Assembly (NCBI RefSeq): GCF_053078305.1
Contig: NZ_CP166879.1
Strand: one strand, 5' to 3'
Length of the DNA: 64,000 nucleotides
Below the pieces are notes generated by a model. That model saw only the letters and a list, made by a program, of their open reading frames with translations, was not told where the DNA came from and searched no databases. The translations under genes were made by a program, and so were the position numbers. Of the stretch, positions 5,886-7,652 are shown one piece after another. Positions within the stretch are counted from its first letter, which is position 1; every line of letters starts with the position of its first letter.

Positions 5886-6200
5886 TCACGAATGGCGATA
5901 ATCAGCACTGATATCTCCGTTACGACAACGCCAGTTGTACACCTCCACAACCTCACTGAATCCGGCCACAAGTTCAGCCGTAACAGCGATGGAATCGCCC
6001 AGGCTGCGCAGTTCGTCCATGTCAGGATCAATGCTGTCACTCATGCCAGAAAGTAAGCGCCCTGTGATAGCCAGCCCTTCAAGCAGTTTGCGGGCGTAGA
6101 AATCAGCATCATCAAACATCGCTCTCGCTTCCCGTGCGTCAGCTGCTTTTATGGTTGTAACCAGTTGTTCAAGTATTCTGGTGTTACACACATCACGCAT
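5886..6200 (-). CDS. Hypothetical protein of 104 aa
   Basis: Its ATG overlaps the stop of the upstream paralog (ATGCGTGA junction). It is acidic. Confidence 0.5.
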   Translation of the reverse strand: MRDVCNTRILEQLVTTIKAADAREARAMFDDADFYARKLLEGLAITGRLLSGMSDSIDPDMDELRSLGDSIAVTAELVAGFSEVVEVYNWRCRNGDISADYRHS

Positions 6201-6657
6201 GACTCACCCCCTCACGAATAAGGGTGACAAAAATCAGATGGGTGTGCGGAAGTTGTGCGCGTGCTTCGTGCTCAGTGGCAGCGGTAACGGTGAATATTGC
6301 AATGCTGCCTGTCAGGCACTGCATAAAGCGCCAGACAAAGTAAGGGCGTGCGGATACAGCCATGTGAAAGGCTCCTATGTTTGAGGTAAGGAGTCTCGCT
6401 ACTACGCTGCTAAACATGGTGGCGAGACGTAACAGGGTTAGCAGACTGGCAACATAGAAACCAGCGAGCGCAAAGGCTCCCCCGTTACGCCCCGCCATAA
6501 TGCGGGTATGGGTAGGTTTACGGACACAAAAAAACCGCATATCGGAATGTAAGCGGCTGTCCGCTATGTTATTCAGGCTGCTAAACCCGGTCGCCATGTG
6601 GGTGACTCCGGCATCATACAGCCCGAAAGAAGAGGCGATCAACATGTTTTTATCCAT
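6193..6657 (-). CDS. Paralog 1 of a tandem triplicated gene family of unknown function (154 aa from MDKNM)
   Basis: About 90 percent nucleotide identity to 6650-7114. The amino-acid-level conservation with the divergent third copy is maintained only in the minus-strand frame. The start overlaps the upstream stop (ATGGATAA). Confidence 0.55.
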   Translation of the reverse strand: MDKNMLIASSFGLYDAGVTHMATGFSSLNNIADSRLHSDMRFFCVRKPTHTRIMAGRNGGAFALAGFYVASLLTLLRLATMFSSVVARLLTSNIGAFHMAVSARPYFVWRFMQCLTGSIAIFTVTAATEHEARAQLPHTHLIFVTLIREGVSHA

Positions 6658-7114
6658 GTGATGCCTCCTGACGGATACGGGCGACAAAAATCAGATGTGC
6701 GTGCGGCAGCCGGGCGCGTGCTTCGTGCTCAGTGGCAGCGGTAACGGTGAATACATCGATGTTACTGTGGTGGCACTGCATAAAGCGCCAGACAAAGTAA
6801 GGGCGTGCGAATACAGCCATGTGAAAGGCTCCTGTAGTGAAATTAAGGAGTCTCGCTACTACGCTGTCAAACATGGTGGCGAGACGTAACAGGGTTGACA
6901 GACTGGCACTACAGGAACCAGCGAGCGCAAAGGCTCCCCCGTTACGCCCCGCCATAATGCGGGTATGGGTAGGCTTACGGACACAAAAAAACCGCATATC
7001 GGAATGTAAGCGGCTGTCCGCTGTAGTATTCAGGCTGTCAAACCCGGTCGCCATGTGGACGACTCCGGCATCATACAGCCCGAAAGAAGAGGCGATCAAC
7101 ATGTTTTTAAGCAT
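6650..7114 (-). CDS. Paralog 2 of the tandem triplicated gene family (154 aa)
   Basis: Tandem duplicate of paralog 1 with a 457-bp repeat unit. The start overlaps the paralog 3 stop (ATGCTTAA). Confidence 0.55.
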   Translation of the reverse strand: MLKNMLIASSFGLYDAGVVHMATGFDSLNTTADSRLHSDMRFFCVRKPTHTRIMAGRNGGAFALAGSCSASLSTLLRLATMFDSVVARLLNFTTGAFHMAVFARPYFVWRFMQCHHSNIDVFTVTAATEHEARARLPHAHLIFVARIRQEASHG

Positions 7115-7652
7115 GACTCACCCCCTGACGAATACGGGCGGCGAATACAGCGACACAACCGGACGGGCAACGGTTACGCGCTTCGCGTTCCGTCCAGGCG
7201 GTTACGTGGATGATTTGACGTTCTGACGTGCCAAAGGTGATAAAGCGCCAGATAAAGGCGGTTTGAGAATGTACGAGGGCAGGGGTAGTAGCCATGATGG
7301 CAGCCTCCTTTATCGTTGGGATATACCCACCGCTGGAGGTTCCAATCTCGCTGGCGGTGGACTGCACGGAGTTGGAACTACTGGCGATAAAGGAAACCAG
7401 CCTGACCGAAGTCAGCCCCATACAGCCCACCATTGATAAGGTGTGCGTGTGCGCCGATACAAAAAAAGACGCGTTCGGCGTCTGTATCGCCTTTATCTCC
7501 AGCGGGGTTCCAATCCCGACACCCGTTTTATGAGGTGCGCGGGAATCATAGCCATTTTTGATACTGGCGATCAACTGATTTTCTCTGGCGGGTATTTGGC
7601 GCGGATGCCTGTTACCTGTGGCAATATACACACGACTGTATACAATACACAT
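7107..7652 (-). CDS. Paralog 3 of the tandem triplicated gene family (181 aa, more divergent)
   Basis: Good SD GGAGTTAACCG before the ATG. The C-terminal block FIWRF...TERE ARNR...RIRQGVSHA is conserved with paralogs 1 and 2 despite heavy DNA divergence. Confidence 0.5.
   Translation of the reverse strand: MCIVYSRVYIATGNRHPRQIPARENQLIASIKNGYDSRAPHKTGVGIGTPLEIKAIQTPNASFFVSAHTHTLSMVGCMGLTSVRLVSFIASSSNSVQSTASEIGTSSGGYIPTIKEAAIMATTPALVHSQTAFIWRFITFGTSERQIIHVTAWTEREARNRCPSGCVAVFAARIRQGVSHA

What the first reader, a model, noticed from the sequence alone, without database searches (positions are those of the whole stretch)
6193..7652. Three tandem paralogous genes with conserved 8-nt start/stop overlaps (ATGnnTRA)
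Two copies, 6193-6657 and 6650-7114, are a roughly 457-bp tandem repeat at about 90 percent identity. The third copy, 7107-7652, is much more diverged at the DNA level yet keeps the minus-strand protein frame, with the blocks F[VI]WRF, VTA.TE.EAR and IR.GVSHA. The plus-strand frames are broken by indels. This argues that the minus-strand proteins are real and under selection. Every junction, including the one to the downstream 104-aa gene, has the same ATGgaTAA, ATGctTAA or ATGcgTGA overlap, implying translational coupling in one alpA-proximal operon. I could not assign the family. The proteins are His/Arg/Ala/Phe-rich and have no transmembrane segments.
Basis: seen in the sequence. Interest (0 to 1): 0.65.

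Follow-up and report, generated by a model that had tools for sequence, protein, structure and literature searches.

The report
Three stacked antisense-RNA immunity cassettes
The three "paralogous genes" are three complete copies of the antisense-RNA immunity switch known from phages P4 and P1, each with its own recognition code, stacked in front of the replication genes of a small E. coli phage satellite; the parts are known, but the stack of three non-cross-reacting switches is unusual.

Summary
There are three head-to-tail minus-strand ORFs (7652-7107, 7114-6650, 6657-6193) joined by ATGnnTRA overlaps, and two of them form a 457-bp repeat (87.7% identical).

The family can be assigned. Each unit is a P4/P1-type RNA immunity cassette containing:
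- its own sigma-70-like promoter;
- a leader carrying target sites a1/b1 (seqA/IsrK-like);
- a C4/CI antisense RNA (Rfam RF01695, 72-78 bits, threshold 45);
- targets a2/b2, which overlap the Shine-Dalgarno of an internal ATG;
- a 56-62-aa Icd/Kil-like ORF (NF033153).

The first ~100 codons of each long ORF overlie the promoter and RNA genes. They show no third-codon-position signal (pN/pS 1.26), yet the frame is kept free of stops in 67 of 68 related units. This matches P4's eta ORF, whose translation, not its product, overrides immunity.

The three C4 RNAs have different a'/b' loops, each matched only by its own targets. Unit 1 and unit 2 differ almost only at those positions (P = 1.6e-8).

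Verdict: a known kind of system, a new variant. Arrays of two cassettes were frequent among the relatives sampled; three are rare. Function is inferred by homology, not tested.

The parts
7107..7652 (-). Unit 3 long ORF (181 aa), eta/Ash-like read-through frame. It has its own SD (AAGGAG, 7 nt before the ATG at 7652). It contains all the unit-3 elements listed below.
   Evidence: Pfam Phage_ASH 1.9e-13 on aa 35-129. PHROG 29966 1e-91. Frame free of stops in 29 of 29 related P4-type units.
7545..7574 (-). Unit 3 promoter-like site, TTGATC-18-TATGAT. It ends 7 nt before the start of the leader RNA match.
   Evidence: Same hexamers at the same place in all three units. Positionally equivalent to P4 PLE and to the annotated P1 promoter P1c4.
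7462..7538 (-). Unit 3 leader: seqA/IsrK-like RNA with targets a1 (TTGGAAC, 7513-7507) and b1 (GATAAAGG, 7497-7490). It ends in an intrinsic terminator (stem 7483-7467 plus a U run).
   Evidence: Rfam isrK RF01394, 63.8 bits (threshold 50). Terminator scan. Target coordinates.
7350..7437 (-). Unit 3 C4/CI antisense RNA. b' loop TTTCCTTTATCG (7396-7385); a' AGTTCCAA (7379-7372).
   Evidence: Rfam C4 RF01695, 77.6 bits (threshold 45). Model R1, 84.5 bits. Coordinates.
7296..7349 (-). Unit 3 downstream targets a2 (TTGGAAC, 7345-7339) and b2 (CGATAAAGGA, 7315-7306). b2 overlaps the SD (AAGGAGG) of the internal ATG.
7107..7295 (-). Unit 3 short ORF (62 aa), Icd/Kil-like. Its ATG at 7295 aligns with the start codons of P1 icd and P4 kil.
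   Evidence: NF033153 3.1e-15, 56 bits (cutoff 25). Invariant Met in alignment A2. RefSeq annotates exactly this 62-aa ORF on an identical sequence.
6650..7114 (-). Unit 2 long ORF (154 aa). Its start ATG is inside ATGCTTAA, overlapping the unit 3 stop.
   Evidence: Frame open in 38 of 39 distinct P1-type units.
7070..7099 (-). Unit 2 promoter-like site, TTGATC-18-TATGAT.
   Evidence: Aligns with the annotated P1 promoter P1c4 (TTGACC-17-TATAGT).
6985..7063 (-). Unit 2 leader with a1 (TTGACAG, 7041-7035) and b1 (ACTACAG, 7027-7021), P1-type.
   Evidence: Below the Rfam thresholds: isrK 32.3 bits, c4-a1b1 29.3 bits. 78-81% DNA identity to the a1-b1-c4-a2 region of P1, P7 and D6. Exact complements to a'/b'.
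6872..6959 (-). Unit 2 C4 antisense RNA. b' TTCCTGTAGTG (6917-6907); a' CTGTCAAC (6901-6894), which is the phage P1 'a' allele.
   Evidence: Rfam C4 72.3 bits. R1 92.6 bits. P1 comparison.
6821..6871 (-). Unit 2 targets a2 (TTGACAG, 6870-6864) and b2 (CACTACAGGA, 6839-6830). b2 overlaps the SD (AGGAG).
6650..6820 (-). Unit 2 short ORF (56 aa), Icd-like.
   Evidence: NF033153 1e-13, 51.1 bits..
6193..6657 (-). Unit 1 long ORF (154 aa). Its start ATG is inside ATGGATAA, overlapping the unit 2 stop, with AGGAGG 7 nt upstream.
6613..6642 (-). Unit 1 promoter-like site, TTGATC-18-TATGAT.
6528..6606 (-). Unit 1 leader with a1 (TTAGCAG, 6584-6578) and b1 (AACATAG, 6570-6564).
   Evidence: (below threshold).
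6415..6502 (-). Unit 1 C4 antisense RNA. b' TTTCTATGTTG (6460-6450); a' CTGCTAAC (6444-6437), which is the phage P7 'a' allele.
   Evidence: Rfam C4 73.3 bits. R1 91.8 bits. P7 comparison.
6364..6414 (-). Unit 1 targets a2 (TTAGCAG, 6413-6407) and b2 (AACATAG, 6381-6375), next to the SD (AGGAG).
6193..6363 (-). Unit 1 short ORF (56 aa), Icd-like.
   Evidence: NF033153 1.4e-10, 41 bits..
5886..6200 (-). Downstream 104-aa gene. Its start is inside ATGCGTGA, overlapping the unit 1 stop. It sits where ant sits in P1 and epsilon in P4. Function unknown.
   Evidence: No family, PDB or phage hit. AF2 pLDDT 49.
4119..5812 (-). Replication genes gated by the array: DUF4222 (5812-5513) and an AAA_25/RepA-like helicase (5516-4119).
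7826..8029 (-). alpA-family gene upstream of the array, the counterpart of P4 ORF88. It is the presumed entry point of helper-induced transcription.

Best explanation
Each of the three 'genes' is a complete RNA-based immunity cassette. It is the kind first described in satellite phage P4 (PLE promoter, seqA, CI RNA, seqC, kil nested in eta) and in phages P1/P7 (c4, icd, ant).

Shown from the sequence:
- Every unit has a promoter-like site.
- Every unit has a leader carrying two short targets (a1, b1).
- Every unit has an 88-nt C4/CI antisense RNA whose single-stranded a' and b' segments are exact complements of those targets.
- A second pair of targets (a2, b2) lies 51-54 nt further down. b2 covers the ribosome-binding site of a 56-62-aa Icd/Kil-like ORF.
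- The three cassettes use three different a/b codes with no cross-complementarity.
- A long reading frame runs through promoter, leader and C4 into the short ORF. Each long frame starts in an SD-ATGnnTRA overlap with the stop of the unit before it.

Inferred from P4, P1 and Gifsy-1:
- In the quiescent island each promoter makes its own C4 RNA. C4 pairs with its targets, blocks Icd-like translation and causes premature termination, so the downstream 104-aa gene and the replication genes (DUF4222, RepA-like helicase) stay silent.
- When a helper phage activates transcription from upstream (the alpA region), ribosomes load on the unit 3 long ORF. They are passed from unit to unit by termination-reinitiation at the overlaps. 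Continuous translation masks the targets and overrides all three locks.
- This would explain why the long frames are kept open although their amino-acid sequence is not conserved.

More speculative: the extra cassettes supply additional C4 specificities that act in trans on other satellites or P1-like phages carrying the same code.

Origin: the array grows and shrinks by recombination within the conserved icd core.
For: RNA identity:
- Rfam C4 at 7437-7350, 6959-6872 and 6502-6415 scores 77.6, 72.3 and 73.3 bits (threshold 45). isrK at 7538-7462 scores 63.8 bits (threshold 50).
- Units 1 and 2 are 78-81% identical in DNA to the a1-b1-c4-a2 region of P1, P7 and D6.
- In 38 distinct C4 sequences, 99.9% of stem cells pair and 11 of 22 pairs show compensatory change.

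Targets:
- a' has exact 7-nt complements on both sides of C4, and b' has 7-10-nt complements, in all three units and in nearly all 79 C4 copies found in 89 sequences.
- Cognate pairs score a7 plus b7-10. Non-cognate pairs among the three units score a<=5 and b<=5.
- 17 of the 25 unit 1/unit 2 differences in the first 294 nt fall in the 49 nt of a/b elements (binomial 1.6e-8). Identity is 97.9% outside those elements and 63% inside.
- The two 'a' alleles are those of the heteroimmune phages P1 (TTGACAG) and P7 (TTAGCAG).

Short ORF:
- NF033153 hits only the C-terminal ~48 aa of each ORF.
- The internal Met is invariant with the P1 icd and P4 kil starts.
- The distance from the C4 end to the ATG is always 51 or 54 nt.
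- Third-position excess and pN/pS 0.55 are seen only in this part.

Promoters: TTGATC-18-TATGAT sits at the same place in all three units, 7 nt before the leader. It is positionally homologous to the annotated P1 promoter P1c4 and to P4 PLE.

Long ORF:
- P4 has the same layout: isrK 8692-8615, C4 8507-8420, an Icd-like domain at the end of the old 'cI' ORF, and 8-nt overlaps to epsilon and ORF151.
- The role of eta translation is summarised in PMC10111431 (which cites Forti 1999). Translated orf45 over the C4-like RNA, coupled to anrP by AUGA, is described in PMC4825925.
- Frame 0 is stop-free in 67 of 68 distinct units, against 15-29 polymorphic stop sites in the other frames.

Array dynamics: sister islands carry u3 plus a u2/u1 hybrid (L001), or an identical u3 plus a mosaic unit with the u1 C4 (L098).
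Against: - Nothing here is experimental. No transcript, processing, termination or translation data exist for this island.
- The leaders of units 1 and 2 are below the Rfam thresholds for isrK and c4-a1b1.
- The promoter calls are consensus matches (5 found against 2.8 expected in shuffles), supported only by position and homology.
- Phage P1 itself lacks the long frame (closed 33 nt upstream of icd), so the eta-type override is not universal.
- Transcripts from the unit 1 promoter need to pass only the unit 1 lock, so the upstream cassettes do not obviously tighten repression. Their benefit (trans-immunity) is conjecture.
- The alpA stop and the unit 3 ATG are 173 nt apart, unlike the ATGA coupling in P4.
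- The survey loci were chosen by similarity to these units, so the frequencies are biased.
Confidence: 0.82

Rival explanations
1. One reading: three paralogous, full-length 154-181-aa proteins of one family, whose amino-acid sequences are the selected product, expressed as a translationally coupled operon.
For: - The long frames are open in nearly all relatives.
- Pfam Phage_ASH and PHROG 29966/6928/3960 model the full length and label members 'transcriptional repressor/regulator'.
- In other elements the same frame is fused to much longer N-terminal regions, open for up to 2271 nt upstream. PMC10111431 treats these as 'Bro network' genes.
- Unit 3 has a good SD before its ATG.
Against: - In the N-terminal 98 codons, variability is flat across codon positions (0.161/0.170/0.154) and pN/pS between units 1 and 2 is 1.26.
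- That stretch is fully occupied by a promoter, a leader with a terminator, and a C4 RNA with covarying stems and targets.
- The 'repressor' label goes back to the P4 'cI' ORF, whose immunity factor is an RNA (PMC10111431, PMC3632133).
- RefSeq annotates an identical unit 3 sequence as a pseudogene fragment plus a 62-aa Icd-like protein.
Confidence: 0.08
2. The extra cassettes are neutral by-products of recombination between related satellites and have no function of their own. Only the last cassette (unit 1) matters.
For: - Sister islands work with two cassettes, and the second slot is mosaic.
- No complete E. coli genome in the collection has this exact three-unit array.
- Transcripts from the unit 1 promoter bypass the upstream locks (inference from the layout).
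Against: - All three cassettes keep every element intact: promoter hexamers, C4 stems, cognate a/b complementarity, SD, ATG, Icd-like ORF, open long frame and junction signal.
- In 15 arrays with two or more full cassettes, the cassettes always differ in both a' and b'.
- Units 1 and 2 differ almost only at the recognition elements. This is not what decay looks like.
Confidence: 0.1
3. The cassettes act mainly as type I toxin-antitoxin-like addiction modules. Each has a toxic Icd/Kil cell-division inhibitor held in check by its own antisense RNA. Together they stabilise the island rather than control its replication.
For: - P1 Icd blocks Z-ring formation and is toxic (PMC11897509).
- P4 Kil kills cells when overexpressed (PMC10111431).
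- The layout, with a small toxic ORF whose RBS is covered by a cis-encoded antisense RNA, resembles type I systems.
- Tandem Sib/Ibs modules of that kind lie in the same window at 30931-31455.
Against: - In P4 and P1 the same module is the immunity switch for the downstream operon (PMC10111431, PMC12197685, PMC3632133).
- Here too it sits directly before, and overlaps, the replication operon.
- C4/CI is processed out of the same transcript as the target, not transcribed from the opposite strand.
- Nothing here bears on the relative stability of toxin mRNA and antitoxin RNA.
Confidence: 0.1

Closest known systems
Satellite phage P4 immunity region (PLE, seqA, CI RNA, seqC, kil nested in eta, then epsilon)
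   Same: - Same order of elements on the strand that leads from the alpA/ORF88 gene to the primase/helicase gene.
- isrK/seqA and C4/CI Rfam hits, and an Icd-like domain at the end of a long ORF that begins upstream of the promoter.
- 8-nt ATGnnTRA overlaps to the next genes.
- Unit 3 shares the P4 sequence AGGAGGCTGCCATCATGGCT around the short-ORF start.
   Different: - P4 has one cassette; this island has three in series with three different a/b codes.
- P4 eta is coupled to ORF88 by ATGA, whereas unit 3 starts 173 nt after alpA with its own SD.
- The gene after the array is unrelated to epsilon.
- The island lacks sid, delta and psu and is PICI-like.
Phage P1/P7 immI operon (c4 antisense RNA, icd, ant1/2)
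   Same: - Units 1 and 2 are 78-81% identical in DNA to the a1-b1-c4-a2 region.
- Same promoter position, same a/b logic with b2 on the icd RBS, a homologous Icd protein, and a G-rich SD plus overlapping start/stop at the end of icd.
- Unit 2 carries the P1 'a' allele and unit 1 the P7 'a' allele.
   Different: - P1 has a single cassette and no long read-through frame (closed 33 nt upstream of icd).
- P1 Icd is 73 aa, not 56.
- The downstream gene in P1 is the Ant antirepressor, not a 104-aa ORF plus replication genes.
- The b alleles differ from both phages.
Salmonella Gifsy-1 isrK-orf45-anrP locus (PMC4825925)
   Same: - An IsrK leader sRNA ending in a terminator.
- A C4-like processed RNA (STnc1160) overlapped by a translated ORF whose nucleotide sequence, not its amino-acid sequence, is conserved.
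- Translational coupling by overlapping stop/start to the next gene.
- Cis pairing of the leader with the C4 region. The minimum-energy fold of unit 2 shows the same pairing.
   Different: - Gifsy-1 has a single module in a lambdoid prophage.
- orf45 is short and has no Icd-like domain.
- There IsrK acts in trans as an activator.
Sib/Ibs tandem type I toxin-antitoxin modules of E. coli (own knowledge: Fozo 2008; Han 2010)
   Same: - Tandem, closely related modules of a small toxic ORF plus an antisense RNA, in which a few variable positions make each RNA specific for its own partner.
- Two SIB RNAs lie in this same window at 30931-31080 and 31307-31455.
   Different: An analogy only. There is no sequence or structural relation. 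Sib is transcribed from the opposite strand, and those modules do not gate a downstream operon.
Multi-copy C4-like sRNAs of Acinetobacter baumannii (PMC5320573)
   Same: Many C4-family RNAs in one genome, processed from longer transcripts, with the variability concentrated in the a' region.
   Different: The Acinetobacter paper describes many copies within one genome and does not describe a tandem array. Cognate flanking targets, Icd-like ORFs and a gated replication operon are not described for those copies.

Membership tests
C4 antisense RNA (Rfam RF01695; P1 c4 / P4 CI) | Covariance-model score at or above the curated gathering threshold (45 bits). | tested here: met
   77.6, 72.3 and 73.3 bits, full-length 1-87/87, for 7437-7350, 6959-6872 and 6502-6415. 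P1 c4 scores 68.8 and P4 CI 74.9 with the same model.
C4 antisense RNA (Rfam RF01695; P1 c4 / P4 CI) | A long closing stem plus hairpins supported by compensatory changes. | tested here: met
   38 distinct sequences: 99.9% of cells paired; 11 of 22 pairs changed on both sides; slid controls 39-51% paired. Caveat: the alignment was fitted to the model.
C4 antisense RNA (Rfam RF01695; P1 c4 / P4 CI) | Single-stranded a' and b' complementary to a1/b1 upstream and a2/b2 downstream, with b2 over the RBS of the next ORF. | tested here: met
   Exact 7-nt (a) and 7-10-nt (b) complements in all three units. b2 overlaps AAGGAGG or AGGAG, 8-10 nt before the ATG. Same layout as annotated in P1.
C4 antisense RNA (Rfam RF01695; P1 c4 / P4 CI) | A stable ~77-nt RNA released from the precursor by RNase P, acting in trans. 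| not testable with these tools
   Needs RNA-seq, Northern blots or RNase P assays. The mechanism is described in PMC5320573.
Icd-like host cell division inhibitor (NCBIfam NF033153; P1 Icd, P4 Kil) | HMM score above the curated cutoff (25 bits) over the 48-position domain. | tested here: met
   41, 51.1 and 56 bits on aa 107-147, 107-149 and 133-176. P1 Icd scores 52.6 and the P4 'cI' ORF 73.9.
Icd-like host cell division inhibitor (NCBIfam NF033153; P1 Icd, P4 Kil) | Inhibits cell division (FtsZ) or is toxic when expressed. | not testable with these tools
   Shown for P1 Icd (PMC11897509). Not tested for these proteins.
P4-type nested eta/kil arrangement | A long ORF that starts upstream of the constitutive promoter, runs through the leader and CI RNA, and ends with the short kil/icd ORF in the same frame. 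| tested here: met
   The promoter-like sites at 7574-7545, 7099-7070 and 6642-6613 lie inside the long ORFs. The frame is stop-free in 67 of 68 related distinct units. P4 layout.
P4-type nested eta/kil arrangement | Translation of the long ORF from an upstream late promoter prevents immunity-dependent termination. | not testable with these tools
   Known for P4 (Forti 1999, as summarised in PMC10111431). Here it is only consistent with an open frame that lacks a codon-position signal.
isrK / seqA leader RNA (Rfam RF01394) | Score at or above the gathering threshold (50 bits). | tested here: met
   Met for unit 3 only: 63.8 bits at 7538-7462.
isrK / seqA leader RNA (Rfam RF01394) and c4-a1b1 (RF03163), units 1 and 2 | Score at or above the gathering threshold (50 and 46.7 bits). 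| tested here: not met
   isrK 33.3 and 32.3 bits; c4-a1b1 26.7 and 29.3 bits. These leaders are filed as P1-type a1/b1 leaders on DNA homology to P1 and exact a1/b1 complements, not on Rfam membership.
Pfam PF10554 Phage_ASH | Score at or above the gathering threshold (26 bits). | tested here: met
   Unit 3 scores 51.2 bits on aa 35-129, the stretch that overlies the leader and C4. Units 1 and 2 have no hit.
P4-like satellite (sensu int, alpA, alpha, epsilon, sid, delta, psu) | Presence of sid, delta, psu and epsilon. | tested here: not met
   The island (about 1828-10412) encodes int, a 298-aa ORF, alpA, the array, a 104-aa ORF, DUF4222, a RepA-like helicase, SSB, PerC and Mor. The 104-aa protein shows no similarity to P4 epsilon. 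It works like P4 in immunity, but the gene set is PICI-like.

The most novel reading that the evidence does not exclude
The array is a stack of orthogonal RNA 'locks' that serves as a multi-specificity immunity array. Besides its own replication lock (unit 1), the satellite would carry extra C4 RNAs with other a/b codes that silence, in trans, competing satellites or P1/P7-like phages using those codes. The codes (at least 9 a' alleles and about 20 b' alleles, freely recombined) would be exchanged between elements by crossover in the conserved icd core. This would be an RNA-level counterpart of orphan immunity-gene arrays. The ATGnnTRA junctions would be the device that lets one induced transcript override all the locks at once.
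Probability: 0.3. Interest if true: 0.6.

Novelty: new variant of a known kind. Interest (0 to 1): 0.42.

Why it matters
- Annotation. The ORFs that pipelines call 'Ash family' or 'Icd-like' protein, and the Pfam family Phage_ASH, largely translate a promoter, a leader and an antisense RNA gene. RefSeq annotates identical DNA in two incompatible ways.
- A general lesson for sequence reading. Here a frame is selected to stay open while its peptide is not selected. An intact long ORF is therefore not, on its own, evidence of protein-level function.
- Biology. If the stacked cassettes are orthogonal, as the sequence predicts, they form a natural set of non-cross-reacting antisense regulators.
- Competition. 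They may be how co-resident satellites and P1-like phages exclude or tolerate each other. This can be tested directly with reporter fusions.

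Tried and rejected
- Genome-contig scan for tandem Icd-like units (TCTGGCGYTTYN{430,460}TTYRTCTGGCGYTTY). Only two chance hits (Acidobacteriota, Clostridia).
- Early idea that the long ORFs are spurious because RefSeq splits them into pseudogene fragments plus short ORFs. Rejected: the frames are intact in those records, and an identical unit 3 sequence is split in L098. The split comes from the annotation pipeline, not from any break in the DNA.
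- The 104-aa downstream protein. No Pfam, PHROG or NCBIfam hit, no similarity to P4 epsilon, no tblastn hit in 50,697 phage records, only chance PDB hits, and a single-sequence AlphaFold model at pLDDT 49 that is unusable.
- Exact-string searches for the three specificity regions in IMG/VR. Units 1 and 3 were absent and unit 2 was in two contigs. So no known phage partner sharing a full code was found. P1 shares only 'a' with unit 2 and P7 only 'a' with unit 1.
- Literature searches for tandem or stacked C4/CI cassettes found nothing. The primary P4 paper (PMC94026) is not held.
- Icd-like ORFs without any C4 upstream exist (checked with Rfam), so C4 and Icd are not obligatorily linked.

Full report
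**1. The observation**

The window carries three head-to-tail minus-strand ORFs: 7652-7107 (181 aa), 7114-6650 (154 aa) and 6657-6193 (154 aa). The last can also be read from a TTG at 6687. Tandem Repeats Finder reports one array at 6197-7140, period 457, 87% matches, no indels. The two close copies differ at 57 of 465 positions, which is 87.7% identity. The junctions read ATGCTTAA, ATGGATAA and ATGCGTGA, the last leading into a 104-aa ORF at 6200-5886.

**2. Setting**

The flanking rpoD-dnaG-mug region is 99.8% identical to E. coli chromosomes. The ORFs lie in an island of about 8.6 kb bounded by a 24-nt direct repeat at 1804-1827 and 10389-10412. The island sits next to a tRNA with anticodon CAT. 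Its gene order on the minus strand is:
- integrase;
- a 298-aa ORF;
- alpA;
- the three units;
- the 104-aa ORF;
- DUF4222;
- an AAA_25/RepA-like helicase;
- SSB, PerC and Mor.

This is the integration / 'Bro' / replication / late layout described for Gram-negative PICI-type satellites (PMC10111431).

**3. What each unit contains**

- NCBIfam NF033153 (Icd-like host cell division inhibitor) hits only the last ~48 residues of each ORF, at 41, 51 and 56 bits (cutoff 25).
- Pfam Phage_ASH hits residues 35-129 of the third ORF.
- PHROG 29966 covers all three.

Rfam then shows that the N-terminal two thirds of each ORF is occupied by RNA genes on the same strand:
- C4 antisense RNA (RF01695) lies at 7437-7350, 6959-6872 and 6502-6415, scoring 77.6, 72.3 and 73.3 bits (threshold 45).
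- Each C4 is preceded by an isrK/seqA-type leader. Unit 3 scores 63.8 bits, above threshold. Units 1 and 2 score about 33 bits, below threshold, and also give sub-threshold c4-a1b1 matches.

A consensus scan finds the same promoter-like site (TTGATC-18-TATGAT) at the same place in all three units. It ends 7 nt before the leader match. The unit 3 leader also carries an intrinsic terminator.

Units 1 and 2 are 78-81% identical in DNA to the a1-b1-c4-a2 region of phages P1, P7 and D6. The curated P1 record shows the same order: promoter P1c4, a1, b1, c4, a2, b2, icd, ant. P4 has it too: isrK/seqA at 8692-8615, C4/CI at 8507-8420, and an Icd-like domain at the end of the ORF historically annotated as 'cI'. 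That ORF overlaps epsilon, and epsilon overlaps ORF151, by 8 nt each.

**4. RNA-RNA recognition**

In each unit the segment after hairpin 2 (a') and the loop of hairpin 2 (b') have exact complements both upstream and downstream of C4:

| Unit | a target | b targets (b1; b2) |
|---|---|---|
| 3 | TTGGAAC | GATAAAGG; CGATAAAGGA |
| 2 | TTGACAG | ACTACAG; CACTACAGGA |
| 1 | TTAGCAG | AACATAG |

In each case b2 overlaps the Shine-Dalgarno sequence of an internal ATG, at 7295, 6820 and 6363. Cognate combinations give a7 plus b7-10. Among the three units, non-cognate combinations give at most a5 and b5.

Of the 25 differences between units 1 and 2 in the first 294 nt, 17 fall in the 49 nt of these elements (binomial 1.6e-8). 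Identity is 97.9% outside the elements and 63% inside them. The 'a' alleles of units 2 and 1 are exactly those of P1 and P7 respectively. P1 and P7 are heteroimmune through c4 (PMC12197685, PMC5320573).

**5. Generality**

A covariance model built from the three units plus P1 c4 and P4 CI found 79 C4 copies. It was run over the window and 88 other sequences: 76 IMG/VR contigs and 10 E. coli loci that encode relatives of the ORFs, plus the P1 and P4 records.
- Nearly every copy shows the same flanking complements, across at least 9 a' alleles and about 20 b' alleles that occur in different combinations.
- The C4-to-ATG distance is always 51 nt (P1-type) or 54 nt (P4-type).
- Stems pair in 99.9% of cells, and 11 of 22 pairs show compensatory change.
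- Fifteen loci carry two or more complete cassettes. In these the order is a P4-type cassette followed by P1-type cassette(s), and cassettes within one array always differ in both a' and b'.
- Three cassettes were seen only here and in E. coli 2012C-4502.
- Some Icd-like ORFs have no C4 at all.

**6. Protein or RNA? Both, in different parts**

Evidence on the short ORF:
- The internal Met aligns with the start of P1 Icd (73 aa, experimentally characterised) and with the P4 kil start.
- Among 39 distinct P1-type units, variability by codon position is 0.128/0.129/0.205 in the Icd part. In the N-terminal 294 nt it is 0.161/0.170/0.154.
- Between units 1 and 2, pN/pS is 0.55 in the Icd part and 1.26 in the N part.

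So only the short ORF behaves as a protein under purifying selection.

Evidence on the long frame:
- It contains no stop in 38 of 39 P1-type units and 29 of 29 P4-type units.
- Over the same stretch the other two frames have 15-29 codon sites at which stops come and go.
- Phage P1, which has no upstream late promoter, has the frame closed 33 nt before icd.

This is the signature expected if the frame must be translatable but its peptide does not matter. That is the role reported for P4 eta. Eta begins upstream of the constitutive promoter and is translated only from the late promoter. Its translation prevents CI-dependent termination, while the nested short form Kil is the immunity-controlled product (PMC10111431, citing Forti 1999). 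Gifsy-1 orf45 is a parallel case. It is translated across the C4-like RNA, is conserved in nucleotides but not in amino acids, and is coupled to the next gene by an overlapping stop/start (PMC4825925).

**7. The junctions**

The ATG of each overlap is formed by the His-Ala or His-Gly codons (CAT GCN / CAT GGA) of the conserved C-terminus. An SD-like run (AGGAGG, GGGGGTGAG) lies 7 nt upstream. The 'IR.GVSHA' block is therefore at once a peptide end, a ribosome-binding site and a start codon.

The P1 icd-ant junction (CAGGGGGGTTTATGA) is visibly homologous. The same 8-nt overlaps occur in P4 and in related arrays. In this model, coupling is what carries ribosomes through all three cassettes into the replication operon.

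**8. Origin of the third cassette**

- The closest E. coli islands (95-97% identical) have two cassettes.
- In strain OkiPb01685 the second cassette equals unit 2 for 400 nt and then switches to unit 1-like sequence. This is as expected for a crossover in the conserved icd core.
- In strain JNEC-KY203 the first cassette is identical to unit 3, and the second is a mosaic carrying the unit 1 C4.
- The exact unit 1 C4 occurs in 3 of 5,426 complete E. coli genomes.
- The exact specificity strings of units 1 and 3 are absent from IMG/VR. That of unit 2 is present in two contigs.

**9. Mechanism proposed**

Shown: the element inventory, the complementarity, the orthogonality at sequence level, the open frames, the coupling signals, and the homology to P1 and P4.

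Inferred:
- Each promoter feeds its own C4.
- C4 pairing blocks Icd-like translation and terminates transcription before the replication genes.
- Helper-induced transcription from the alpA side, together with coupled translation of the three long frames, overrides the locks.

Conjecture: the upstream cassettes provide trans-immunity against elements using the same codes. A weak point is that transcripts from the unit 1 promoter meet only the unit 1 lock, so extra cassettes do not obviously tighten cis-repression.

**10. Novelty**

The module is known (P4 seqA-CI-kil/eta; P1/P7 c4-icd). The presence of C4/isrK hits inside 'Bro zone' genes of Gram-negative PICIs has been noted (PMC10111431, PMC3632133). 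Multi-copy C4 RNAs in one genome are known from Acinetobacter (PMC5320573). I found no description of tandem arrays of complete cassettes with mutually exclusive codes, but the searchable library is incomplete. I rate this a new variant of a known kind, of moderate interest.

Noticed in passing
window 30931-31080 and 31307-31455 (+): Two tandem SIB RNAs (Rfam RF00113, 141 and 143.5 bits). These are antisense antitoxins of the Ibs type I toxins. They form another tandem pair of small-ORF/antisense-RNA modules in the same window.
   Followed up: no
window 1985-2066 (-) and 2081-2117: A weak tRNA-like match (Rfam tRNA 35 bits; not called by ARAGORN) and a second related 37-nt copy, at the far end of the island. 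RefSeq annotates 'tRNA-Tyr' and 'tRNA-OTHER' at the same place in the sister island L001.
   Followed up: partly
window 1804-1827 and 10389-10412: A perfect 24-nt direct repeat, GTATGCCTTTTTGTATGCCTTTTT, 8585 nt apart. These are probably the att sites delimiting the island. They lie about 120 nt from the tRNA(CAT) gene rather than inside it.
   Followed up: partly
window 3934-4119: Three copies of an 18-nt repeat (TTTTTTTACTCACTTTTT-like) spaced 83-85 nt apart, immediately downstream of the helicase gene. They look like iterons and may mark the island's replication origin.
   Followed up: no
window 8167-9063 (-): A 298-aa ORF between the integrase and alpA with no hit in Pfam, PHROGs or NCBIfam. 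It sits in the position where satellites often carry accessory or defence cargo.
   Followed up: no
window 7265-7547 (-); L098 1108-1653: The Pfam family Phage_ASH (PF10554) matches exactly the stretch that encodes the leader and the C4 RNA. RefSeq annotates a sequence identical to unit 3 as a pseudogene 'ash family protein' plus a 62-aa Icd-like protein, but annotates other units as 154-aa proteins.
   Followed up: yes
L070-L095 (IMG/VR contigs); L011 2997, L010 2471: Icd-like ORFs with no C4 RNA upstream, confirmed with the Rfam model on a sample. Some sit as the first member of an array ahead of complete cassettes.
   Followed up: partly
L001 13502-19354: In E. coli OkiPb01685 a second satellite-like island lies back to back with the sister island. 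It carries an integrase, an HTH gene, Icd-like ORFs, HicB, DUF4222 and a primase.
   Followed up: no
window 34921-35069 (+) and 22941-23011 (+): An FMN riboswitch (120.9 bits) and a naRNA4/REP-type element (79.3 bits). Both are ordinary chromosomal features.
   Followed up: no
window 7060-7058 vs 6603-6601 (-): One of the few unit 1/unit 2 differences outside the a/b elements (GTC to ACC, two substitutions). It lies in the first predicted leader hairpin, 3-5 nt downstream of the predicted transcription start, and is not compensatory.
   Followed up: no
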